Below are positions 2,234-44,397 of a DNA stretch of 64,000 bases, piece after piece (position 1 is the first letter of the stretch; the number at the start of each line of letters is the position of its first letter). The notes below the pieces were generated by a model. It did no database searches. It saw only the letters and a program-made list of their open reading frames with translations, and was not told where the DNA came from. Made by a program: the position numbers and the translations under genes. The stretch comes from Escherichia phage vB_EcoM_G2494. The stretch is from the sequence record MK327935.1; one strand, given 5' to 3'.

Positions 2234-2444
2234 TTACCCCGAACTCGTTTACAATCTGCGCTTTATAGTAACCACCGCGAGATGCTAATAGATAAGCTGG
2301 GCTTAGGTATTCGTATTCACGGATTTCTACTTGTGCGTTTTCAGTTTCCCAAATCAGTAAAGTCCACATATTTGATTCTCCTGTAAAGTTGTATCTCGTC
2401 TTGATGAATATAGTATAGGGGATCTCGCGATCCCCGTCAAGCAT
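2217..2444 (-). CDS. small hypothetical protein (start possibly internal ATG near 2369 with AGGAGA SD)
   Basis: ORF track 75 aa, same strand as neighbours. Confidence 0.3.
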   Translation of the reverse strand: MLDGDREIPYTIFIKTRYNFTGESNMWTLLIWETENAQVEIREYEYLSPAYLLASRGGYYKAQIVNEFGVIEYEF

Positions 2445-2992: not shown

Positions 2993-3534
2993 AGGTCGCG
3001 ATATAGTACATTATGAAAATGAGAACTTGCATTACCAATATTGTAGATAATAAATTCTTCATCCGGCGCTTGCGCTACAAATTGAGTATGAGCAACCGCC
3101 ACAACCTTAAAAATACGATCCGTGATCTTGTGTTTAATTTCTGCCCCTACTTCCATAGGAACATATTCATTTGTTTCTGTTTCAGTCGCAAAACAGCCAT
3201 CTTCTTCATAAGCACGAACAAATCGGTCGCAATCAGTACGCTTAACAAATTCAAGAGTATATAATTCTCGTGAATTGTCGGTATAGACCAATACAGAATT
3301 ATTATGATAGCGAATCACATACAGGTTATTATCATCGTCAATTACGCAAAAGCTACGGATTCCTTCGCCTTTACTCCAGCAGATATTAACCACCGTTCCT
3401 CTAATAAAAAAACTTTCCTTTAAATTAAAACTAGCCAATGTGCTAGCGTGCATTTTAACAACAACACCATCGCCAATTTCCAGTTTACGAAGTTTAACTT
3501 CTTTGCTCAGTACACAAAACATCATCATCATCAT
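2989..3534 (-). CDS. hypothetical protein
   Basis: ORF track 181 aa; promoter 3564-3591 upstream. Confidence 0.5.
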   Translation of the reverse strand: MMMMMFCVLSKEVKLRKLEIGDGVVVKMHASTLASFNLKESFFIRGTVVNICWSKGEGIRSFCVIDDDNNLYVIRYHNNSVLVYTDNSRELYTLEFVKRTDCDRFVRAYEEDGCFATETETNEYVPMEVGAEIKHKITDRIFKVVAVAHTQFVAQAPDEEFIIYNIGNASSHFHNVLYRDL

Positions 3535-3563: not shown

Positions 3564-3591
3564 ATTATACATTAGCTAATCAGGTTGTCAA
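3564..3591 (-). promoter_or_regulatory. sigma70-like early promoter (TTGACA-16-TATAAT)
   Basis: Minus strand reads TTGACAacctgattagctaatgTATAAT; member of a repeated promoter family. Confidence 0.6.
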
Positions 3592-3628
3592 CACCCCAAA
3601 ACGAAAAAGCCGACCCTTTCGGATCGGC
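3592..3628 (-). terminator. rho-independent terminator downstream of nrdD
   Basis: Minus-strand RNA hairpin gccgaucc-gaaa-gggucggc followed by UUUUUCGUUUU; 6 nt after nrdD stop. Confidence 0.6.
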
Positions 3629-3634
3629 TGAAAA

Positions 3635-5497
3635 TTACATGTGCTTAACGCGGTTTACCATCTCGGAGTGTTTCCCGTGGTTAAATGGACGCAGATCAAC
3701 AGATCCAAGATATCCACTAACGCGACGGATAACATTCATCTTTTCCAGATTGTCATTGCCGCAATCAGGACAAACAAAACCAGACTCGGTCGCTCTCATT
3801 TCCTTATTAGATCCGCATACATGACATACATCAGAAGGAGTATTAACACCGAAGTAGTGCAATTTATCCATTGCATAGTCCACTACAGTTTCAAGACCTT
3901 TCAGGTTGTTTTTCATGTCTGGGAACTCAACATAAGAGATCATGCCACCGGACGCCAGCCAGTGATAATCTTTCTCAAAGTCGATTTTCTCAAATGGAGT
4001 GACTTTCCGGTCTACGTCAAGGTGGAATGAGTTGGTGTACCAGTCTTTATCGGTAGCACCCTTAACAATACCAAATTGCTCTCGGTCCAGTCGATTAAAT
4101 CGATAGCAAAGGCTCTCGGCTGGCGTACCGTAAAGACTAAACCCAAGTCCGGTTTCGTCCTTCCATTTTTCAGTATAATGACGCAAGATCTTAAGAATAT
4201 GTTTACCGTATCGCTGCGCATCTTCCGAATCAAACGGATGAACATCAAACAGGACGCTCAATACCTCATGTAAACCAATATATCCAAGAGAGATACTAGC
4301 GCGACCATCTTTCAGAACTTCCAAAATTTCATCGTTTTGATGAATACGGAAAAACGCACCTTCGGTATACAGTACAGGAGCAACATTAGCTTTAGCGCCT
4401 TTTAAAGCGTCTACGCGACTCATGAGCGCATCAAAACAAATAGGCATACGATTAGCTAGCTCTTGTTCGAATAGCTCAATTCTGCGCATTACAGACGCTT
4501 TACCAGCACGACGCGCGGCAATAAGGGCAATACGCGGAAGATTCAGAGTCACAACACCTAAGTTATTACGTCCGTCTAATACTTCTTCGCCTTTCTCATT
4601 ATGCCACACACCCAGGAAGCTACGACAACCCATCGGGCTAACCGGAACACTAGATCCAGTGATACTACGGTTATTCTTCGCAGAGATATAATCAGGGTAA
4701 AGACGCTTACTAGAACATTCCAATGCAAGTTGCTTAATGTCGTAGTTCGGATCTTCCGGTTTAAGGTTTAATCCTTCTTCTAAGAACATCACCAGCTTAG
4801 GAAACACCGGAGTGATACCATCTTTACCTAAACCTTTAGTTCGAACTTTCAGGATCGCTTTCTGAATCAGTTTTTCTTCCCAGCTAGTCCCCATACCAAA
4901 TGTTAAAGTCACAAAAGGTGTTTGACCGTTGGTGGAGAACAAAGTGTTGATTTCATATTCCAACGCTTGATACCCGTCTAGCGTTTCTTTTTCTGTCTTC
5001 TCTTGTGCATAGAGAGTATCCGCTTTGATTCCGTAGGTTTCGGCATCAGCAAGGTGTTTATGATATGTTTTCTCAACATACGGTGCTAACACCTGATCGA
5101 TGTTTGCAATTGTGGTCCCGCCATATTGATGACTTGCCACCTGTGCGATAATTTGAGCGGTTACAGCACATGCAACACCGATCGATTTAGGACTTTCGAT
5201 TTGTGCGCTACCCAATTTAAAACCATTCTCTAACATGTCTTTGAGATTAACAAGACAGCAGTTAGTAAACGGCATAGCGGGTGCATAATCCATATCATGA
5301 TAATGAATGTCACCGTCTACATGCGCTTTATAGATGTGCTCAGGTAACACGGTTTTAGCAATCTGTTTAGACACAGCACCAGCAATCAGATCTCGACGTG
5401 TCGGGAATGTTCGCGCGTCTTTGTTCGCGTTCTCTTTGCTTACTTCGTTTTCTTTACCCGTTGCGATCTCTGTAATGTCTTTGATTAGTTTTTCCAT
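3635..5497 (-). CDS. nrdD: anaerobic ribonucleoside-triphosphate reductase
   Basis: 620 aa; resembles T4 NrdD along its length; C-terminal glycyl-radical motif RRVSGYLG and Cys-x2-Cys zinc site; no intron interruption. Confidence 0.9.
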   Translation of the reverse strand: MEKLIKDITEIATGKENEVSKENANKDARTFPTRRDLIAGAVSKQIAKTVLPEHIYKAHVDGDIHYHDMDYAPAMPFTNCCLVNLKDMLENGFKLGSAQIESPKSIGVACAVTAQIIAQVASHQYGGTTIANIDQVLAPYVEKTYHKHLADAETYGIKADTLYAQEKTEKETLDGYQALEYEINTLFSTNGQTPFVTLTFGMGTSWEEKLIQKAILKVRTKGLGKDGITPVFPKLVMFLEEGLNLKPEDPNYDIKQLALECSSKRLYPDYISAKNNRSITGSSVPVSPMGCRSFLGVWHNEKGEEVLDGRNNLGVVTLNLPRIALIAARRAGKASVMRRIELFEQELANRMPICFDALMSRVDALKGAKANVAPVLYTEGAFFRIHQNDEILEVLKDGRASISLGYIGLHEVLSVLFDVHPFDSEDAQRYGKHILKILRHYTEKWKDETGLGFSLYGTPAESLCYRFNRLDREQFGIVKGATDKDWYTNSFHLDVDRKVTPFEKIDFEKDYHWLASGGMISYVEFPDMKNNLKGLETVVDYAMDKLHYFGVNTPSDVCHVCGSNKEMRATESGFVCPDCGNDNLEKMNVIRRVSGYLGSVDLRPFNHGKHSEMVNRVKHM

Positions 5498-6036: not shown

Positions 6037-6066
6037 AATATAATCCTCTCGTTGTTAAGTGGGAGT

Positions 6067-6094
6067 ATTATAGCATACTCCCTTCGCATGTCAA
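6067..6094 (-). promoter_or_regulatory. sigma70-like early promoter with inverted repeat across the -10
   Basis: Minus strand TTGACAtgcgaagggagtatgcTATAAT; inverted repeat gggagta...tactccc. Confidence 0.55.
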
Positions 6095-7269
6095 GCACTA
6101 ACTTTTTTCTTTACTGCTTTCACCTTCTGGCGAATTGCTCGAATCTCTTCGATCTCTTTTTCAGTCTCTTTAACAATTTCTTTGCGATTCTGAATATCTG
6201 TATCGAGATTATCATCAAGTTTAGGCAGCATGTCAATCAAGAACTTTTTAAAGTCTTTCAGGTTTCGGATAACAGCACCTTCACCCATTACCGCAACACC
6301 CACACCATCCGGCAGATCACCAAACAGCTTAACCAGTTCAGACAGATGATCATGATCTTCTAGTGCTTCTTCCGGTTCAGATGGCAGTTCAACAAAGTTA
6401 TAACGTTCATCATTGCTGATCAAGTGATACCAGCAAAGCCCGAAAGATTTCGGTGTATATTCTACACCATCAATTTCAACCGCGTCAACACTTCCATAAT
6501 CATCTACTTTAGTTACCTTAAATCCTTGTCCCAGCTTTTGAACAATTTCAACAACATGACTTGATACAGTTTCAGCGGTAAACCAATATGGCAAATTATG
6601 CTGATTTGGCTTGTAGCGTTCACCTACTTTAAATCTCTGACCAGCCGCTTGCATAGAATGAAATTGTTGTTTCGTGATTTCCGCGAAGTATTCAAATTCG
6701 CCACCATCAAACACACAAGCCCATTGATCACAAAAACGATCTGCCTTAACAGTTTCACCTTTCGCGGTGATCGTGGTAGCTGATCCGTGCAATTCTTCTT
6801 CAACTAAAAAGCCATATTCGACAAAATCAACAAGTTTCATAGCTTCTTTGTGATCTGGATCATGCTCTCCCCAGAATCGCTTAAATTCTTGCAAACCTTC
6901 TGGGGTAAACGAATAACATTTACCTTTTTCAAAGTAAGTCGGCATTGCATCCTCTTTCTTGTTCATCGCTTCGTATGCCTCTTTTGAGATGCGTTTAAAG
7001 TATTTACGCTCACTGTGCATAATCATAGTAGCCCAATAATCCACAATATCATTAGCGGAATAAACTACATCTCCAGCTTCAATAGTAATAACATGACCGT
7101 GGTCATCTTTTTCTAATACTTTAAAGCCCTTTTCTACGATTTCAGCAACCCGAATATGACCACGGCGCGAAGCATCGGTCAGAATAATTGAATAGCGAGA
7201 AAAGTCTAGAAACTCATCTTTACCGCCTTCACGGAATGCATAGTAATGACCTTCAAAGAATTTAGCCAT
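6091..7269 (-). CDS. hypothetical protein (shares ERKYFKRI motif region with next two genes)
   Basis: ORF track 392 aa; GAGGATTATATTATG start context. Confidence 0.55.
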   Translation of the reverse strand: MAKFFEGHYYAFREGGKDEFLDFSRYSIILTDASRRGHIRVAEIVEKGFKVLEKDDHGHVITIEAGDVVYSANDIVDYWATMIMHSERKYFKRISKEAYEAMNKKEDAMPTYFEKGKCYSFTPEGLQEFKRFWGEHDPDHKEAMKLVDFVEYGFLVEEELHGSATTITAKGETVKADRFCDQWACVFDGGEFEYFAEITKQQFHSMQAAGQRFKVGERYKPNQHNLPYWFTAETVSSHVVEIVQKLGQGFKVTKVDDYGSVDAVEIDGVEYTPKSFGLCWYHLISNDERYNFVELPSEPEEALEDHDHLSELVKLFGDLPDGVGVAVMGEGAVIRNLKDFKKFLIDMLPKLDDNLDTDIQNRKEIVKETEKEIEEIRAIRQKVKAVKKKVSA

Positions 7270-7300
7270 AATATAATCCTCTCGTTGTTTAGACGGGAGT

Positions 7301-7329
7301 ATCTTACTACTCCCGTTTCATCATGTCAA
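7301..7329 (-). promoter_or_regulatory. sigma70-like early promoter (TTGACA-17-TAAGAT) with embedded hairpin
   Basis: Minus strand TTGACAtgatgaaacgggagtagTAAGAT; inverted repeat acgggagta...tactcccgt. Confidence 0.55.
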
Positions 7330-8179: not shown

Positions 8180-8210
8180 TGTTGATTCTCCTTCTTGATT
8201 AGATGGGAGT

Positions 8211-8239
8211 ATTTTACTACTCCCATTTCTTATTGTCAA
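8211..8239 (-). promoter_or_regulatory. sigma70-like early promoter (TTGACA-17-TAAAAT) with embedded hairpin
   Basis: Minus strand TTGACAataagaaatgggagtagTAAAAT. Confidence 0.55.
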
Positions 8240-9030: not shown

Positions 9031-9843
9031 TCAATCTACGTTAGTTACATAAACTTCTTGCGTATCAGAAGACTTACCACCTGAACGATCTAGGCAATAG
9101 GTCTTATTCAACAGGACGCAGTTTAAATCATTCCGCTTGATAAAGTCAAGGAGATGATCATTTACCTTTCCCTTATGATGTGTGACATTACTGATACCAA
9201 ACTGAAAACCACGCGCCATAATCGATTCTACCCACTGATAGAATTTAATCTCTTCCTCGTCACTCCAGAACTTATTATATTCCGCAGAAGTGATAAGGTA
9301 CGGCGGGTCCAAATAAACGAAATCACCTGGCAAGATCTCGATCTCGTCATAACGACCAGACGTAAAACTGATTCGACCGTCTTTGTTTTCTTCCTTAAAA
9401 TTCAGGACACGCTCTACCGCGTTTTCGTTAAAAGTCCGTCGGCCAAAATTAGCATTAAATTCTCCCTTCCTGTTATGGCGGTTAATGTTGCTAAAACTGT
9501 GCTGAATCAGAACAAACAGAGATAGCGGATCTGGATTCTCATTATACTTCTTACGGAATGTCATGTAAGCGTCTTTATCATCACGAGACAAACCATTTTC
9601 GGCAATAATACGCTTGATCGTAGAAACCGGATCAGGACACTCGTCAATCGCTTTGTACGCGTCAATTAAGCGGTGATCATAGTCATTAGCCAGCACATCC
9701 CCTTCGACGTACAGAGACACGCTCAAGCCGCCACAGAAGGCATCAACAAAGCGGTTATAGTGCTTAGGGAAATACTTACTAACACCCGGCAATAACTTTT
9801 CCTTATTGCCAGTATAGGGAATTAAACCTAATGCTTTCTTCAT
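9031..9843 (-). CDS. dam: DNA N6-adenine methyltransferase (Dam-like)
   Basis: 270 aa; motif I DAFCGGLSV and motif IV DPPY; N-terminus resembles T4 Dam. Confidence 0.85.
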   Translation of the reverse strand: MKKALGLIPYTGNKEKLLPGVSKYFPKHYNRFVDAFCGGLSVSLYVEGDVLANDYDHRLIDAYKAIDECPDPVSTIKRIIAENGLSRDDKDAYMTFRKKYNENPDPLSLFVLIQHSFSNINRHNRKGEFNANFGRRTFNENAVERVLNFKEENKDGRISFTSGRYDEIEILPGDFVYLDPPYLITSAEYNKFWSDEEEIKFYQWVESIMARGFQFGISNVTHHKGKVNDHLLDFIKRNDLNCVLLNKTYCLDRSGGKSSDTQEVYVTNVD

Positions 9844-12110: not shown

Positions 12111-12139
12111 AGTATAAGGGATCACCGATCCCCTGTCAA
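12111..12139 (-). promoter_or_regulatory. sigma70-like early promoter (TTGACA-17-TATACT)
   Basis: Minus strand TTGACAggggatcggtgatccctTATACT. Confidence 0.5.
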
Positions 12140-14387: not shown

Positions 14388-14417
14388 ATTTGATTCTCCT
14401 TAGTTGGTATGGTTATC

Positions 14418-14445
14418 ATTATACGGGGATTTCTCACCGTGTCAA
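14418..14445 (-). promoter_or_regulatory. sigma70-like early promoter (TTGACA-16-TATAAT)
   Basis: Minus strand TTGACAcggtgagaaatccccgTATAAT. Confidence 0.55.
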
Positions 14446-14448
14446 CAA

Positions 14449-14670
14449 TTAAATGATCTCTGCTTCACCGTTAAGGAAGAAGGACCATGTTTTGTTAGGA
14501 TAACGAAGCGCCCATGATTCAGCAGTTTTAACACCAGCTTCGAACAATTGACGGCTGGTTACTTTAGCCATACCATCTTCGATGGCAACGTTTTCAATAA
14601 TCATCGGGTACTTAGCGCCACGCATGAAACCGAAGCCAGCGGAAGATTTGATGATTTTAACAGTTGCCAT
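14449..14670 (-). CDS. hypothetical protein
   Basis: ORF track 14449-14724; start refined to MATVK at 14670 with AGGAGA SD. Confidence 0.45.
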   Translation of the reverse strand: MATVKIIKSSAGFGFMRGAKYPMIIENVAIEDGMAKVTSRQLFEAGVKTAESWALRYPNKTWSFFLNGEAEII

Positions 14671-14709
14671 TTTTGATTCTCCTAGAAAGTGTCGTGTTTC
14701 GATGGGTGT

Positions 14710-14738
14710 ATTATGCAATAACACCGGATAGCTGTCAA
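14710..14738 (-). promoter_or_regulatory. sigma70-like early promoter (TTGACA-17-CATAAT)
   Basis: Minus strand TTGACAgctatccggtgttattgCATAAT followed by conserved acacccatcgaaac leader. Confidence 0.55.
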
Positions 14739-15951: not shown

Positions 15952-15980
15952 ATTATGCTATACCATATTCCGGTTGTCAA
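15952..15980 (-). promoter_or_regulatory. sigma70-like early promoter (TTGACA-17-CATAAT)
   Basis: Minus strand TTGACAaccggaatatggtatagCATAAT. Confidence 0.55.
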
Positions 15981-15985
15981 CACCT

Positions 15986-16020
15986 AAAAACGAAAAAGCC
16001 ACCCTTTCGGATGGCTTTTT
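15986..16020. terminator. bidirectional rho-independent terminator (conserved hairpin family)
   Basis: gccaccc-tttc-ggatggc flanked by A-run upstream and T-run downstream; same motif as 3592-3628 and 21826-21857. Confidence 0.55.
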
Positions 16021-26662: not shown

Positions 26663-26691
26663 ATTGTAGGGGAGTTATCCTCCCCTGTCAA
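26663..26691 (-). promoter_or_regulatory. sigma70-like early promoter (TTGACA-17-TACAAT)
   Basis: Minus strand TTGACAggggaggataactccccTACAAT with hairpin ggggag...ctcccc. Confidence 0.5.
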
Positions 26692-26931: not shown

Positions 26932-26960
26932 ATTATGCTATAGGCCGGATCTGGTGTCAA
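26932..26960 (-). promoter_or_regulatory. sigma70-like early promoter (TTGACA-17-CATAAT)
   Basis: Minus strand TTGACAccagatccggcctatagCATAAT. Confidence 0.55.
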
Positions 26961-26985
26961 CAACTTTTTTAAAAAATTTTAGGCA

Positions 26986-27012
26986 ATAAAAAAGCCACTC
27001 CGAAGAGTGGCT
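26986..27012 (-). terminator. rho-independent terminator
   Basis: Minus RNA agccacuc-uucg-gaguggcu followed by UUUUUUAUU. Confidence 0.55.
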
Positions 27013-27162
27013 TATAGGGAAGGTAGCGAATCTTCCTTGTCTCCAACCTGCTAGCGGCCTAGCAAGTGAATGCTTTAGCGTACCGGATCGCCCACATACG
27101 CTGTAATAAATGCGGCTAGGTGACGTCCAAATCATTCTAACCGCGCTGTCTTTAGTTCACTA

Positions 27163-28275: not shown

Positions 28276-28474
28276 ATTATCACCTTATTTGCTAATCGCT
28301 AAACCCAATCCGAAGAGAGCACCCGATGCTACAGTATACCCGAAAGTTTCAAAGGCAGTAAAGATATCTAAGCCACCAGCTAACAGAGTTGCAGTAAACA
28401 GAGTACCAGCTACGAACATAAAAGTTTTACCGATGAATTTCATTTTGATTCTCCTTTCGTTTGTTTGTGGGGGT

Positions 28475-28503
28475 ATCTTACTACCCCCGTTTCATGTTGT
28501 CAA
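28475..28503 (-). promoter_or_regulatory. sigma70-like early promoter (TTGACA-17-TAAGAT) with embedded hairpin
   Basis: Minus strand TTGACAacatgaaacgggggtagTAAGAT; inverted repeat gggggta...taccccc. Confidence 0.55.
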
Positions 28504-28509
28504 CTATTT

Positions 28510-28884
28510 TTAAGAATATTTTACTTCGTCTACAATGTCTTTCATGACATTGATTTCCATTCCGGTCAGAACACGTTGGAACATGTGCTGCACATACGCT
28601 TTCAGGTATTCATTTGATGGCTTGCTATCGAAAGTCTTTTTAGTGTAGTAGTCATCACCGAAAGCTACTGTAATTACATTTTCGTCGTCGTTCCAAGCGA
28701 TATAAGCAAATTTGCCGTTATCCCAGAAGCGAGCACTAATTGCTACTTTTGTTGAATCGAATCCTACTTCGCTGTGAGATTCAAGAACTACTTGCGTACC
28801 AGTTTCTTTATGAATGTAGTAGCGGGATACTAAGTCAAAGTTACGGGTGTAGTGACATTCGAATTTATCTTTAAACATCATCAT
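28510..28884 (-). CDS. hypothetical protein
   Basis: ORF track 28510-28953; start refined to ATG at 28884 with AGGAGA SD, downstream of promoter 28922-28950. Confidence 0.5.
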   Translation of the reverse strand: MMMFKDKFECHYTRNFDLVSRYYIHKETGTQVVLESHSEVGFDSTKVAISARFWDNGKFAYIAWNDDENVITVAFGDDYYTKKTFDSKPSNEYLKAYVQHMFQRVLTGMEINVMKDIVDEVKYS

Positions 28885-28921
28885 TTTGATTCTCCTAAGT
28901 GTGTTTCGTTTCGATATGTGC

Positions 28922-28950
28922 ATTATGCTATAGTCGTTTATGGTTGTCAA
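28922..28950 (-). promoter_or_regulatory. sigma70-like early promoter (TTGACA-17-CATAAT)
   Basis: Minus strand TTGACAaccataaacgactatagCATAAT. Confidence 0.55.
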
Positions 28951-28951
28951 C

Positions 28952-28986
28952 ACCTAAAAACAAAAAACCCCGAAAAATTTTTCGGG
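28952..28986 (-). terminator. rho-independent terminator
   Basis: Palindromic hairpin ccccgaaaaatttttcgggg; minus RNA followed by UUUUUUGUUUUU. Confidence 0.55.
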
Positions 28987-28994
28987 GTATAGAA

Positions 28995-31461: not shown

Positions 31462-31486
31462 TAAAAAAAGCCCGTCAATGACGGGC
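31462..31486 (-). terminator. rho-independent terminator downstream of gene 2
   Basis: Minus RNA gcccguc-auu-gacgggc followed by UUUUUUUAUU. Confidence 0.55.
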
Positions 31487-31492
31487 TTAATG

Positions 31493-32314
31493 TTATGCAT
31501 CCTTCCAAACTTTCCTTGCGTCGTATTTCTTGCCTTTTGACATAAACTGATATGTCGGCATATAGATAATATTGCTCCAGTCTTTCGGGCTAATCTCAAC
31601 AAGTTTTGTTTTAATGTGTCCCGGTAGATATGCTTTGATCATGTGATCACTTCCACGCATACCTTTTACATCGCTCCATTTGATTTTTAAGCGTGTTTTA
31701 TTGCTCAAGGTAGGAGTAGATGCATATTGCTTTAAAAGTGCTTCCAGAAACTGCTGACGGGCTTTAGGCGTTACATAGTGTAAGTTAAGACCCAGCATTA
31801 CAGTATTACCCGCCTTTGTCTTAGAATCACCCAGACAAATGATCAGCGGGAAAACATCCCAATATGGCAAAGTGTCTTTATACTTCGCATCATACATAAA
31901 GGTATAGATTCGCCCTACTTGCGGTTTTACAATCTGGTGTCCCTTTATTCCCGCTTTTATTGTTTTAGTAAACCACTCCTGTGATTTTTCTTTAGGACGA
32001 CTCTTTGATACAGCACGCATAGACGCACGAAAATCATTAATCATCATCATTGCGCGTTGCTGCTTATTGAGACCCTTTGCGCCTTTCCCTTTTAGTTTTT
32101 CAACTTCTATTGCTGTTTTAATTTCGCTGGCATAACGAGACATACTTTTAGTGAAAGTCGCATAGGCTATTCCCTTAGAATCTGCAAATGCTTTAGCTGT
32201 CATGCCTTTGGCTTTTGCTTTCGCAAATTCTACACCCAATTCGACCCACTGTTTAGACTTTCGTTTTTGGGGAGACGGCTTTTCGTCTTCTGTGATTATT
32301 TCAAATACGCTCAT
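31493..32314 (-). CDS. 2: DNA end protector protein
   Basis: 273 aa (T4 gp2 is 274 aa); synteny. Confidence 0.7.
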   Translation of the reverse strand: MSVFEIITEDEKPSPQKRKSKQWVELGVEFAKAKAKGMTAKAFADSKGIAYATFTKSMSRYASEIKTAIEVEKLKGKGAKGLNKQQRAMMMINDFRASMRAVSKSRPKEKSQEWFTKTIKAGIKGHQIVKPQVGRIYTFMYDAKYKDTLPYWDVFPLIICLGDSKTKAGNTVMLGLNLHYVTPKARQQFLEALLKQYASTPTLSNKTRLKIKWSDVKGMRGSDHMIKAYLPGHIKTKLVEISPKDWSNIIYMPTYQFMSKGKKYDARKVWKDA

Positions 32315-32802: not shown

Positions 32803-32817
32803 TTTAGCACCCTTTAT

Positions 32818-32825
32818 TATAAATA
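32818..32825 (+). promoter_or_regulatory. T4 late promoter box TATAAATA (gene 53)
   Basis: TATAAATA about 32 nt upstream of gp53 ATG. Confidence 0.55.
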
Positions 32826-32857
32826 CATAATACTATTTATCAATTGAGGGTGCTAAA

Positions 32858-42923: not shown

Positions 42924-42951
42924 TTGACAATCTTATTTGGTAAGGTATAAT
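42924..42951 (+). promoter_or_regulatory. consensus sigma70 promoter (TTGACA-16-TATAAT) inside the late module
   Basis: gtgTTGACAatcttatttggtaaggTATAATac, followed by GGAGGA SD and ATG at 42981. Confidence 0.65.
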
Positions 42952-42980: not shown

Positions 42981-43238
42981 ATGGCACGTCGTAAATTTAC
43001 AGATAATTGTGAAGCAATTCAGGTATCCCCTTGCGGTTGGGATGTGATCGCGAACGGTGAAAAGATCGGAGAGATCATCGATCATACTCATTCATCATTA
43101 GCCGATTACACCGATGAACTGTGGGAGGGTATCAACTTCATGAATGACACTAAACGATTCAAGACTATCGACGAAGCTATCTATTTTGTGTATAATCCAA
43201 CTTTCGGTATGTGGGGAACTAGAAAATGGCACGCGTAA
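42981..43238 (+). CDS. hypothetical protein (first gene of inserted cassette)
   Basis: ORF track 85 aa; strong SD. Confidence 0.5.
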   Translation: MARRKFTDNCEAIQVSPCGWDVIANGEKIGEIIDHTHSSLADYTDELWEGINFMNDTKRFKTIDEAIYFVYNPTFGMWGTRKWHA

Positions 43239-43558
43239 ATATTAAATTGCATTACACAATGAATAAAGCTAAGTTCCCAATGCAAAAGCATTACTATGGT
43301 CTACGTGCACAAGATCCTAAACTCTATGGTACTCATTGGTTTTGTAAACATGATAACCAATGGCACACATACGAAGAAATGCACGAGATGATGAAACAGG
43401 GTATTGAATTTAGTTATTCTAATTATGACCATCGTATAACTTGCATTCGAAAATTGAAACGATGGATTCGTAAGAATCCGCAATTTAAAAACTTTGTGTT
43501 CTTTATGTCTCATGTTTATTTGGGACATAGCGTTACCGTCACAGCAAAGGTTAAATAA
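43226..43558 (+). CDS. hypothetical protein (second gene of cassette)
   Basis: ORF track 110 aa; overlaps neighbours (translational coupling). Confidence 0.5.
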   Translation: MARVNIKLHYTMNKAKFPMQKHYYGLRAQDPKLYGTHWFCKHDNQWHTYEEMHEMMKQGIEFSYSNYDHRITCIRKLKRWIRKNPQFKNFVFFMSHVYLGHSVTVTAKVK

Positions 43559-44397
43559 TGGCACGACTTTCTAAACAAGAACAAAAATTACACGATCGGG
43601 CGATGGAGTTGATTAATTCAGATCGTCCATTGACATTTGAAGAAAAAGAATTTTGCTATAACAATTATCATGGCGATGGACTAGGTGGTTCCGGTGCATT
43701 CTTTACCCCAGAATGGCTTGCCTGGGATTTTACCATTGATGCACACTGCACCGGAAAAGTATTAGATCTTTGTGCGGGGATCGGTCGCTTATCTTTTTGT
43801 ATGTTACATCGTTGTAAGCCAGAAAAGATCGTATGCGTCGAACTCAATCCAGAATTTGCGCGGATTGGCAAGCGACTATTACCGGAGGCAGAATGGATCA
43901 CCAGCGATGTATTCGAATTTGAGTCAAACGAAAAATTCGATGTGGTGATCAGCAATCCACCTTTCGGTAAAATCAATACTACAGACACAAAGGATGTATT
44001 TGAATATACTGGCGGTGAGTTTGAATTTAAGGTTATGACGTTAGGCCAGAAGTTTGCCGATGTAGGTTATTTTATTGTTCCTGCTAGTTCCGCTGGGTTT
44101 GCTTATTCCGGTAGACCTTATTATGATGAATCAGTGAAGTCTAATAAATATCTAAAATGGAGCAAACAAACTGGTTTGGTGACTTACGCCGGATGTGGGA
44201 TCGATACATCAATCTATCGCGATGAATGGCATAGTACCAACGTTTTAACAGAAGTGGTTGAGGTTCGGTATTACGAGAAAGAAGCCGTAGAAGCGCCTAA
44301 ATCACGTCCTAACGAACAAATAGAAGAAAGTAAGGAGATCACCTTACCGAAACAGGAAAGCGAGTCTGGGACGCTCTCAGATTTGTTTGACATTTAA
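43558..44397 (+). CDS. SAM-dependent amino-methyltransferase (probable N6-adenine DNA MTase, gamma-type motif order)
   Basis: 279 aa; FFTPEWLAWDF, motif I VLDLCAGIGRL, motif IV VISNPPFGK in order X-I-IV. Confidence 0.7.
   Translation: MARLSKQEQKLHDRAMELINSDRPLTFEEKEFCYNNYHGDGLGGSGAFFTPEWLAWDFTIDAHCTGKVLDLCAGIGRLSFCMLHRCKPEKIVCVELNPEFARIGKRLLPEAEWITSDVFEFESNEKFDVVISNPPFGKINTTDTKDVFEYTGGEFEFKVMTLGQKFADVGYFIVPASSAGFAYSGRPYYDESVKSNKYLKWSKQTGLVTYAGCGIDTSIYRDEWHSTNVLTEVVEVRYYEKEAVEAPKSRPNEQIEESKEITLPKQESESGTLSDLFDI

What the first reader, a model, noticed from the sequence alone, without database searches (positions are those of the whole stretch)
7293..7329. Repeated early-promoter family with inverted repeats embedded across the -10 element
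At least 16 minus-strand sites share TTGACA-N16/17-(T/C)A(T/A)AAT, often followed by a conserved leader (acacccatcgaaacgaaacac) and the start context GAGGATTATATTATG. In several copies (6061-6082, 7293-7316, 8203-8226, 20591-20610, 28469-28488) a 7-9-bp inverted repeat such as gggagtaNNNtactccc spans the spacer and -10. These could double as 3' stem-loops for read-through transcripts from the upstream gene or as protein-binding sites.
Basis: seen in the sequence. Interest (0 to 1): 0.45.

Follow-up and report, generated by a model that had tools for sequence, protein, structure and literature searches.

The report
Known PeSL promoter–hairpin cassettes
The repeats are the already published "PeSL" cassettes of RB49-type T4-like coliphages: strong host-type early promoters with a small hairpin built into them. 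The finding is real and non-random, but it is not new.

Summary
The window is a Krischvirus (RB49-like T4-type coliphage; 97% identical to kaaroe, JSE and RB49). Seventeen minus-strand intergenic sigma70 promoters and one plus-strand copy share TTGACA-N16/17-TAnnnT. All five cited inverted repeats sit at exactly the stated coordinates.

The hairpins are far above chance (Fisher combined p about 1e-15). As RNA they fold at −14 to −16 kcal/mol. They keep pairing through compensatory changes among paralogues. Across relatives they vary about as little as the −35 and −10 boxes (4% of stem columns against 25% of non-stem spacer columns).

This is the PeSL ("promoter-early stem-loop") family of Arbiol, Comeau and Krisch (2010; extended 2014).

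What I add:
- Embedded hairpins occur where the upstream stop codon abuts the −35.
- No embedded hairpin has a U-tract, and this subclass was never tested as a terminator.
- Phage KFS-EC carries a chimeric cassette formed by recombination between the focal copy and its neighbour, deleting two genes.

Verdict: real, already known, low novelty.

The parts
7293..7329 (-). Focal cassette (between ORF059 and frd.2). -35 TTGACA at 7329-7324, which contains the TGA stop of ORF059 at 7328-7326. -10 TAAGAT at 7306-7301. Hairpin ACGGGAGTA-gtaaga-TACTCCCGT at 7316-7293. SD GAGG and ATG at 7269.
   Evidence: (-15.2 kcal/mol, z -4.3)
6061..6094 (-). Hairpin overlapping the -10 (between frd.2 and ORF057). 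TTGACA-16-TATAAT; hairpin GGGAGTAT-gctata-ATACTCCC. The frd.2 TGA stop lies inside the -35.
8203..8239 (-). Hairpin overlapping the -10 (between gene 49 and ORF060). TTGACA-17-TAAAAT; hairpin ATGGGAGTA-gtaaaa-TACTCCCAT. This is the recombination partner of the focal copy in phage KFS-EC.
11428..11464 (-). Hairpin overlapping the -10. TTGACA-17-TATAAT; stem ATGCGGT/ACCGCAT. RNAfold extends it with wobble pairs to 10 bp around a 6-nt loop. In phi1 a G-to-A change lengthens the perfect stem to 9 bp.
20591..20625 (-). Hairpin overlapping the -10. TTGACA-17-TAATAT; hairpin GGGGGTA-gtaata-TACCCCC.
25954..25988 (-). Hairpin overlapping the -10. TTGACA-17-CATAAT; hairpin GGGTGTAT-agcata-ATACACCC, followed by the exact leader ACACCCATCGAAACGAAACAC.
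28469..28503 (-). Hairpin overlapping the -10. TTGACA-17-TAAGAT; hairpin GGGGGTA-gtaaga-TACCCCC.
14705..14738 (-). Promoter TTGACA-17-CATAAT with only a weak 5-bp pairing (GGTGT/ACACC). Not significant as a hairpin.
   Evidence: z 0.09
2412..2440 (-). Hairpin between -35 and -10. TTGACG-17-TATACT; hairpin GGGGATC-gcga-GATCCCC.
12111..12139 (-). Hairpin between -35 and -10. TTGACA-17-TATACT; hairpin GGGGATC-ggt-GATCCCT. phi1 and JSE carry the GGGGAT-cacgt-ATCCCC variant, identical to RB49 PeSL211/210.
26663..26691 (-). Hairpin between -35 and -10. TTGACA-17-TACAAT; hairpin GGGGAG-gataa-CTCCCC (-19.4 kcal/mol, z -5.5).
14418..14445 (-). Promoter TTGACA-16-TATAAT with a weak stem. It sits at the junction where gene 38 (about 908 bp in RB49, phi1, kaaroe and JSE) is absent from the window.
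3564..3629 (-). Upstream-terminator type. Canonical GC hairpin plus T-run at 3629-3608, followed by TTGACA-16-TATAAT at 3591-3564.
15952..16020 (-). Upstream-terminator type. Terminator-like hairpin plus T-run at 16020-15993, then TTGACA-17-CATAAT at 15980-15952.
26932..27013 (-). Upstream-terminator type. Terminator-like hairpin plus T-run at 27013-26992, then TTGACA-17-CATAAT at 26960-26932 with the exact conserved leader.
28922..28988 (-). Upstream-terminator type. Terminator-like hairpin plus T-run at 28988-28967, then TTGACA-17-CATAAT at 28950-28922.
19735..19785 (-). Promoter TTGACT-17-TATTAT (19779-19751), upstream of the ORF starting at 19716 (vs.1 by RB49 synteny), enclosed by a 12-bp stem (GACUUUCUGGU.../...AUCAGAAAGUU).
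   Evidence: z -3.2
42924..42951 (+). The only plus-strand copy. TTGACA-16-TATAAT preceded by ...GTTGGCTTTTTCTATTTT, upstream of small ORFs (42981-43238 and onward) inside the late-gene block.

Best explanation
These are PeSL (promoter-early stem-loop) cassettes of an RB49-type T4-like coliphage.

Each cassette is a compact intergenic module: an AT-rich UP-like stretch, a near-consensus sigma70 -35/-10 promoter used by unmodified host RNA polymerase right after infection, a C-rich discriminator, an A/C-rich leader, an SD and a start codon.

In the focal subclass a 7-9 bp G/C-rich hairpin is written into the two promoter segments where sigma70 tolerates most sequences, the distal spacer and the discriminator. 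The AT-rich -10 forms the loop.

The 3' arm ends at about -1, so the promoter's own mRNA lacks the hairpin. Only RNA reading through from the upstream gene contains it, just after that gene's stop codon. The most likely role is therefore to close or insulate the upstream transcript. It would do this by attenuating read-through or by forming a barrier to 3' exonucleases, so that each small early gene is driven mainly by its own promoter.

Secondarily, the 60-100 bp of shared sequence serves as a homology patch for the phage recombination system and produces deletions, insertions and swaps of the flanked genes.

Shown: the sequence architecture, selection for pairing, and recombination at the focal copy. 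Shown by others: promoter activity for other family members, and reduced downstream lacZ expression for one stem-loop lying between -35 and -10. Inferred: that the subclass overlapping the -10 acts at the RNA level on read-through transcripts.
For: Identity: 97% identical to Krischvirus genomes. Arbiol et al. 2010 describe 51-52 such motifs in RB49 and phi1 and state that the commonest stem-loop positions are between -35 and -10 or overlapping the -10. The RB49 consensus has T or C at -12 and C at -3 to -1, reported to match 5'-end mapping.

Non-randomness: 11 exact matches against 0.32 expected. Hairpin permutation test, Fisher p 1e-15. RNA folding gives -13.8 to -16.1 kcal/mol with z -2.6 to -4.3.

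Selection for pairing: among 11 distinct paralogues, 93% of stem cells pair, against 63% in column shuffles (0 of 2000 reach the observed value) and 41-59% with slid partners. Seven of 8 stem positions show alternative Watson-Crick pairs differing on both sides.

Constraint across four relatives: 5 of 142 stem columns vary, against 20 of 79 non-stem spacer columns (Fisher p 2e-6). No -35 or -10 columns vary.

Sense-strand G.T wobbles occur in RB49 L005:14007, phi1 8239 and window 12139.

Geometry: embedded hairpins occur where the upstream stop is -4 to +9 nt from the -35 and the intergenic space is 54-80 nt. Canonical upstream terminators occur where the stop is 42-44 nt away and the space is 100-110 nt.

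Recombination: KFS-EC has a chimeric cassette, with its 5' half from the window-8239 copy and its 3' half from the focal copy, and lacks ORF060 and ORF059. phi1 and JSE carry the PeSL211/210 stem variant at the 12139 position.
Against: No embedded hairpin is followed by a U-tract (0-1 T in the next 8 nt), and the consensus terminator scan flags none of them on the sense strand. Classical intrinsic termination is therefore not expected.

The only published terminator assay used a stem-loop between -35 and -10, in a reporter context I could not inspect because the supplement is not held.

Hairpin stability is equal on both strands, so energetics do not identify the functional strand.

Stem conservation could be inflated by gene conversion among paralogues.

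Only 2-3 of about 10 structural differences between the window and four relatives touch a cassette. The others include homing-endonuclease insertions.
Confidence: 0.8

Rival explanations
1. The embedded hairpins are ordinary Rho-independent terminators that stop upstream transcripts efficiently.
For: Arbiol et al. 2010 report that the PeSL211/210 stem-loop lowered lacZ expression about as much as rrnB T1. The hairpins are G/C-rich with stems of 7-9 bp.
Against: There is no U-tract after any embedded hairpin, and none is flagged by the terminator scan on the sense strand, whereas the upstream-type hairpins are. The tested stem-loop also lacks a U-tract, so the lacZ drop may have another cause.
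Confidence: 0.15
2. The inverted repeats are DNA operators for a dimeric phage or host protein that switches the early promoters off.
For: The palindromes overlap the -10, where a bound protein would block RNA polymerase. RB49-type phages lack MotA-type middle-mode transcription, so another early shut-off route is conceivable.
Against: At least six different stem sequences exist (GGGAGTA, GGGGGTA, GGGTGTAT, GGGGATAT, ATGCGGT, GGGGATC, GGGGAG), with two-sided compensatory changes and G.T wobbles. The position relative to the boxes shifts by 1-2 nt or moves into the spacer. Several family members have no palindrome at all.
Confidence: 0.05
3. The structure acts at the DNA level. Cruciform or hairpin extrusion either modulates promoter opening, since the -10 would lie in a single-stranded loop, or creates a target for endonuclease VII that starts recombination at the cassettes.
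For: The KFS-EC crossover maps inside the shared stem-loop core and not in the AT-rich flank. Endonuclease VII (gene 49) is encoded next to the focal cassettes. Stability is the same on both strands.
Against: The stems are short (7-9 bp) for cruciform extrusion. G.T wobble variants fit RNA pairing better. The crossover position may only reflect where the two copies are identical (11 nt). There is no direct evidence.
Confidence: 0.08
4. The hairpins terminate antisense (plus-strand) transcription that enters the early block.
For: The conserved GAAAC before the 5' arm reads as a T-rich tail on the opposite strand. The scan flags 8201-8228 and 28467-28490 as terminator-like on the plus strand. 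C.A mismatches at the outer stem position would be U.G pairs in antisense RNA.
Against: Only 2 of 7 copies are flagged. The tails are weak (GTTTCAT). Interior wobbles are G.T on the sense strand, which would be C.A mismatches in antisense RNA. No plus-strand promoters are known to read into this block.
Confidence: 0.04
5. The hairpins have no function of their own and persist because the cassettes are recent duplicates homogenised by gene conversion.
For: Sub-families share identical stems (GGGAGTA three times in the window). There is evidence of paralogue exchange.
Against: Different sub-families keep pairing with different sequences. Across relatives the non-stem spacer right next to the stems varies 25%, against 4% for the stems. 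One substitution in phi1 lengthens a stem.
Confidence: 0.07

Closest known systems
PeSL (promoter-early stem-loop) cassettes of coliphages RB49 and phi1 (Arbiol, Comeau, Kutateladze, Adamia, Krisch 2010, Genome Biol Evol 2:140; PMC2839356)
   Same: Same genus. Same near-consensus TTGACA-N17-TATAAT promoter, AT-rich upstream region and G(n)-loop-C(n) stem-loops. Same positional subclasses, including 'overlapping the -10'. [quoted passage not shown] Same association with small ORFans and with indels. The window's copies are orthologues of RB49 and phi1 copies.
   Different: Nothing essential. The window phage differs in which cassettes and flanked genes it carries (no gene 38 at 14411/14449). 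Its focal stem is 9 bp, against 7 bp in relatives.
PeSL/PmSL elements of T4/PST and KVP40/nt-1 (Comeau, Arbiol, Krisch 2014; PMC4122927)
   Same: Composite promoter plus stem-loop cassettes in hyperplastic regions, next to indels.
   Different: In the figure legend for PST, the stem-loops lie just upstream of the promoter. Those elements have different consensus stems (AGNA/TCNT, A3-4G3/C3T3-4) and weaker promoter consensus. The window's focal class embeds the hairpin in the promoter.
Rho-independent (intrinsic) terminators of E. coli and T4
   Same: A G/C-rich hairpin placed right after a stop codon. The upstream-type cassettes in the window (3629-3608, 16020-15993, 27013-26992, 28988-28967) are canonical examples.
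   Different: The embedded hairpins lack the U-tract.
Phage T4 early promoters
   Same: sigma70-dependent, with an UP-like A-rich region, very strong, and upstream of small early genes.
   Different: The T4 consensus has GTTTAC at the -35. RB49-type promoters have TTGACA, T or C at -12 and C-rich -3 to -1. The C-run is the 3' arm of the hairpin.
Hairpin promoters of phage N4 virion RNA polymerase (from my own knowledge, not tested here)
   Same: A short DNA hairpin (5-7 bp stem) at the promoter.
   Different: N4 hairpins are recognised as extruded DNA by a phage-encoded single-subunit polymerase. Here the promoter is a standard duplex sigma70 promoter, and nothing shows that the hairpin is needed for initiation.

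Membership tests
PeSL (Arbiol et al. 2010) | Near-consensus sigma70 -35 and -10 boxes with 16-17 nt spacing | tested here: met
   Ten exact minus-strand matches plus seven with 1-2 mismatches, against 0.32 expected.
PeSL (Arbiol et al. 2010) | [quoted passage not shown] | tested here: met
   The sequences listed show A/T-rich stretches (aaaaagttg, aaaatag and similar) directly before the -35. A filter of at least 60% A+T was passed.
PeSL (Arbiol et al. 2010) | Stable stem-loop in one of five positions relative to the promoter (upstream, over the -35, between the boxes, over the -10, downstream) | tested here: met
   Seven copies overlap the -10, three lie between the boxes, four are upstream with a T-run, and one encloses the promoter. 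Site 14738 has no significant hairpin.
PeSL (Arbiol et al. 2010) | [quoted passage not shown] | tested here: met
   Stop-to-start distances are 54-110 nt. The flanking genes are mostly hypothetical ORFs in the RB49 and phi1 annotation.
PeSL (Arbiol et al. 2010) | Recombination between cassettes yields indels with a single chimeric cassette | tested here: met
   The KFS-EC chimera of the 8239 and 7329 copies lacks ORF060 and ORF059. Only 2-3 of about 10 indels against four relatives touch a cassette.
PeSL (Arbiol et al. 2010) | Promoter activity and terminator/attenuator activity in vivo | not testable with these tools
   Published for PeSL206/205 (promoter) and the PeSL211/210 stem-loop (terminator) only. 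Both have the stem between -35 and -10.
Intrinsic (Rho-independent) terminator | G/C-rich hairpin immediately followed by a U-rich tract | tested here: not met
   Embedded hairpins have 0-1 T in the 8 nt after the stem, and none is flagged on the sense strand. The criterion is met only by the four upstream-type hairpins.
Operator palindrome for a sequence-specific DNA-binding protein | One conserved half-site sequence at a fixed position | tested here: not met
   There are at least six stem sequences with compensatory changes, and the register and position vary.
Any curated Rfam RNA family | Covariance-model match at or above the gathering score | tested here: not met
   No matches in the whole window. 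The only hit at E<=1 near the focus is a chance Xist match.

The most novel reading that the evidence does not exclude
The subclass overlapping the -10 may not be a transcription terminator at all. It could be a DNA-level or processing element. One version: a hairpin or cruciform that places the -10 in a single-stranded loop and couples promoter firing to supercoiling or upstream transcription. Another: a structure-specific nuclease target (endonuclease VII) that makes the cassettes active recombination hot spots. Either would explain the missing U-tract and the KFS-EC crossover inside the stem-loop core.
Probability: 0.1. Interest if true: 0.5.

Novelty: already known. Interest (0 to 1): 0.15.

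Why it matters
PeSLs are proposed to explain two things: how T4-type phages transcribe dozens of tiny accessory genes as insulated units, and how they shuffle those genes between genomes. Confirming them here adds nothing categorically new.

The analysis does sharpen one open point. The commonest subclass, with the hairpin across the -10, has never been tested functionally and lacks the U-tract expected of a terminator, so how it works is still unresolved.

The KFS-EC junction is a clean natural example of recombination between two cassettes, with the crossover inside the hairpin core.

Tried and rejected
1. A single structure string for the count of structure pairs did not work. MAFFT re-anchored the copies on the promoter boxes, which puts the hairpins in two registers. 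I did the pair count and controls in Python on loop-centred extracts instead.
2. Comparing sense and antisense folding energies to identify the functional strand gave no difference (mean -14.95 vs -15.20 kcal/mol, p 0.57).
3. Testing whether indels against RB49, phi1, kaaroe and JSE cluster at cassettes gave only 2-3 of about 10 events. The rest include homing-endonuclease insertions. The gene 38 junction has a cassette on one side only.
4. Looking for the cassette outside the genus found it only in the 58 Krischvirus records and 3 IMG/VR contigs. Mobility between unrelated phages is not supported for this sequence family.
5. GATC (Dam) enrichment was 354 observed against 326 expected, which is not notable.
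6. Rfam gave nothing.
7. The supplementary figure S1 of Arbiol et al., which shows the terminator assay, is not held.
8. I dropped 32816-32843 from the family. It lies upstream of late gene 4 and has TTGATA with an enclosing repeat.

Full report
**What the window is**

A 7-kb query around the finding is 96-98% identical over its full length to 58 Krischvirus genomes (RB49, phi1, JSE, kaaroe and others). GC skew and ORF orientation show a minus-strand early-gene block from 1 to about 33 kb and a plus-strand late block after it. In the RB49 and phi1 annotation, the focal site lies between ORF059 and frd.2.

**Checking the observation**

- **Focal sequence.** On the minus strand it reads cTTGACAtgatgaaACGGGAGTAgTAAGATACTCCCGTctaaacaacgaGAGGattatattATG.
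- **Consensus count.** A tolerant scan adds copies with -10 = TAAGAT, TAATAT, TACAAT, TATACT or TATTAT. That gives 17 minus-strand intergenic promoters, each with an SD and start codon 29-46 nt downstream. "At least 16" is therefore right only for a looser consensus, and the focal copy itself does not fit the stated -10 pattern.
- **Inverted repeats.** All five cited repeats are at exactly the given coordinates.
- **Leader.** The 21-nt leader is exact twice and within 3 mismatches five times, against 0 expected.
- **Start context.** GAGGATTATATTATG occurs six times exactly, but only three copies follow one of these promoters. It is a shared ribosome-binding context and not part of the promoter family.

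**Are the hairpins more than chance?**

- **Permutation test.** With the hexamers fixed and the spacer and downstream bases shuffled, 10 of 19 candidate sites have a perfect stem at p<0.05. The Fisher combined p is 1e-15.
- **Folding.** As RNA, the hairpins overlapping the -10 fold at -13.8 to -16.1 kcal/mol with z from -2.6 to -4.3. The focal copy is -15.2 with z -4.3.
- **Positional types.** Seven copies overlap the -10, with the 5' arm in the distal spacer, a 6-nt loop holding most of the -10, and the 3' arm filling the discriminator. Three copies have the hairpin between -35 and -10 (GGGGATC.../GGGGAG...). Four have a canonical GC hairpin plus T-run upstream of the -35. One has a long stem enclosing the promoter. 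One (14738) has no significant hairpin.

**Selection for pairing**

- **Paralogues.** I added paralogues from a second RB49 hyperplastic region and centred each hairpin on its loop. Among 11 distinct copies, 93% of stem cells pair. Column shuffles give 63% (0 of 2000 reach the observed value) and slid partners give 41-59%. Seven of 8 stem positions carry alternative Watson-Crick pairs that differ on both sides, for example GGGAGTA/TACTCCC, GGGGGTA/TACCCCC, GGGTGTAT/ATACACCC and GGGGATAT/ATATCCCC. The structure was derived from these same sequences, so the paired percentage is biased upward; the two-sided changes are the informative part.
- **Wobble intermediates.** G.T wobbles occur on the sense strand: RB49 GGGGGTA/TACTCCC, phi1 at the 8239 copy, and window 12139.
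- **Orthologues.** Across RB49, phi1, kaaroe and JSE, 5 of 142 stem columns vary, against 20 of 79 non-stem spacer columns (Fisher p 2e-6). No -35 or -10 columns vary. In nine orthologues of the focal copy, the 20-nt hairpin core is invariant. Only the base after CCC varies (G in the window, A elsewhere), so the window has a 9-bp stem and its relatives a 7-bp stem.

**Geometry**

- **Link to intergenic space.** Embedded hairpins occur where the upstream stop codon is -4 to +9 nt from the -35. At 7329 and 6094 the TGA stop lies inside TTGACA. The intergenic space in these cases is 54-80 nt. Upstream terminators occur where the stop is 42-44 nt away and the space is 100-110 nt.
- **Position relative to +1.** The layout after the -10 is a 6-nt discriminator (a-C-a-C-C-C) and then ATC.... 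Nolan et al. 2006 report C-richness at -3 to -1 and T or C at -12 for RB49 early promoters. [quoted passage not shown] 2002.
- **Consequence.** The 3' arm ends at about -1, so the hairpin is absent from the promoter's own mRNA and present only in read-through RNA from the upstream gene, just past its stop codon. My inference is that when there is no room upstream of the -35, the hairpin is written into the two promoter segments that sigma70 reads least specifically.

**What is known**

Arbiol, Comeau, Kutateladze, Adamia and Krisch (2010) described these motifs as PeSLs, with 52 in phi1 and 51 in RB49. [quoted passage not shown] They proposed a terminator/attenuator role for upstream transcription and showed the following:
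- promoter activity for PeSL206/205;
- reduced lacZ expression for the stem-loop of PeSL211/210;
- recombination between cassettes, including mini-circles.

Comeau et al. (2014) extended PeSLs to T4/PST and KVP40/nt-1. I retrieved the two tested RB49 cassettes. Both have the stem between -35 and -10 (GGGGAT-cacgt-ATCCCC and GGGGATC-ggt-GATCCCC), and neither is followed by a U-tract. The subclass overlapping the -10 has therefore not been tested.

**Is it a terminator?**

None of the embedded hairpins has a U-tract (0-1 T in the next 8 nt), and the consensus scan flags none of them on the sense strand. It does flag the four upstream-type hairpins. Stability is the same on both strands. Two copies look weakly terminator-like on the antisense strand because the conserved GAAAC before the 5' arm reads as a T-rich tail there, but the interior wobbles favour the sense strand. 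I therefore favour a transcript-insulating 3' hairpin, acting as an attenuator or an exonuclease barrier, over a classical intrinsic terminator. This step is inferred and not shown.

**Recombination**

- **KFS-EC.** In phage KFS-EC, gene 49 is followed directly by frd.2, and the single cassette between them is a chimera. Its -35 flank and the bases before the stem match the gene 49/ORF060 cassette (window 8239). Its -10 (TAAGAT), leader and start codon match the focal cassette. The crossover falls in the shared GGGAGTAGTAA core and removes ORF060 and ORF059, about 910 bp.
- **Paralogue exchange.** phi1 and JSE carry the PeSL211/210 stem variant at the 12139 position, which suggests exchange between paralogues.
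- **Limits.** Gene 38, present in RB49, phi1, kaaroe and JSE, is absent from the window, and the junction is at the 14418-14445 cassette. Only one side of that junction is a cassette. Overall, 2-3 of about 10 structural differences touch a cassette.
- **Distribution.** The cassette sequence is confined to Krischvirus: 58 records with 248 places, and three IMG/VR contigs.

**Verdict**

The interpretation (early promoters plus a 3' stem-loop for read-through RNA) matches the published one. The protein-binding alternative is disfavoured by the compensatory variation. The feature is already known as PeSL. What remains open is the actual mechanism of the subclass that overlaps the -10.

Noticed in passing
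window 14411-14449: Gene 38 (tail-fibre adhesin/assembly protein, about 908 bp with its two flanking terminators) sits here in RB49, phi1, kaaroe and JSE but is missing from the window phage. The junction runs from the ORF080 stop codon straight into the -35 of the next cassette, and the promoter spacer differs from that of RB49.
   Followed up: partly
window 7326-7328 and 6091-6093: The TGA stop codons of ORF059 and frd.2 lie inside the TTGACA -35 hexamers of the next promoters, so the coding sequence and the promoter overlap.
   Followed up: yes
window 2418-2435 and 12117-12133; L005 3737, 4882, 5295: The stems lying between -35 and -10 are GGGGATC...GATCCCC and so place one or two Dam (GATC) sites inside the promoter spacer. 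The phage encodes its own dam (window 9031-9843). GATC is not enriched overall (354 observed, 326 expected).
   Followed up: partly
window 7308-7314, 8218-8224, 6075-6082; the SDs of most early genes; RB49 regB maps by synteny to about window 19.8-20.2 kb: The GGGAGTA 5' arms and the GGAG/GAGG Shine-Dalgarno sequences contain the GGAG target of the RegB endoribonuclease, which RB49 encodes in the region syntenic with this window. The hairpins or leaders might be RegB processing sites.
   Followed up: no
window 3520-3534 and 28880-28890: The genes downstream of the 3591 and 28950 promoters begin with tandem ATG repeats (ATGATGATGATGATG) whose copy number differs among the window, RB49, phi1, kaaroe and JSE.
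   Followed up: no
window 6034, 7267, 7890, 11399, 14084, 24980 (minus strand): An identical 15-nt start context, GAGGATTATATTATG, is shared by six genes, three of which have no promoter of this family upstream. Three of the six (ORF057, frd.2, ORF059) are adjacent. RefSeq annotates frd.2 and ORF059 as goF-like, and the kaaroe record puts the ORF057 and frd.2 homologues in the same VOG, so part of the sharing may reflect gene duplication.
   Followed up: no
window 4618-4628, 21795-21812, 31481-31495: These are empty sites where relatives carry homing-endonuclease insertions: JSE splits nrdD at 4618-4628 and has another endonuclease gene at 21795-21812, and phi1 ORF130.1 lies at 31481-31495. 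JSE also has an extra hypothetical ORF of unknown function at 22990-23014. None of these sites is at a cassette.
   Followed up: partly
window 32816-32856: A promoter-like TTGATA-16-TATAAT lies upstream of late gene 4 and is enclosed by an 8-bp inverted repeat, AGCACCCT...AGGGTGCT. It is probably not a member of the early family.
   Followed up: no
window 42924-42951 (+) and ORFs 42981-44397: A single early-type promoter with an upstream T-run lies on the plus strand inside the late block. It precedes two small ORFs and a 279-aa ORF.
   Followed up: no
window 8201-8228 and 28467-28490 (+ strand): The reverse complements of two hairpins that overlap the -10 are flagged as terminator-like on the antisense strand, because the conserved GAAAC before the 5' arm becomes a T-rich tail there.
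   Followed up: partly
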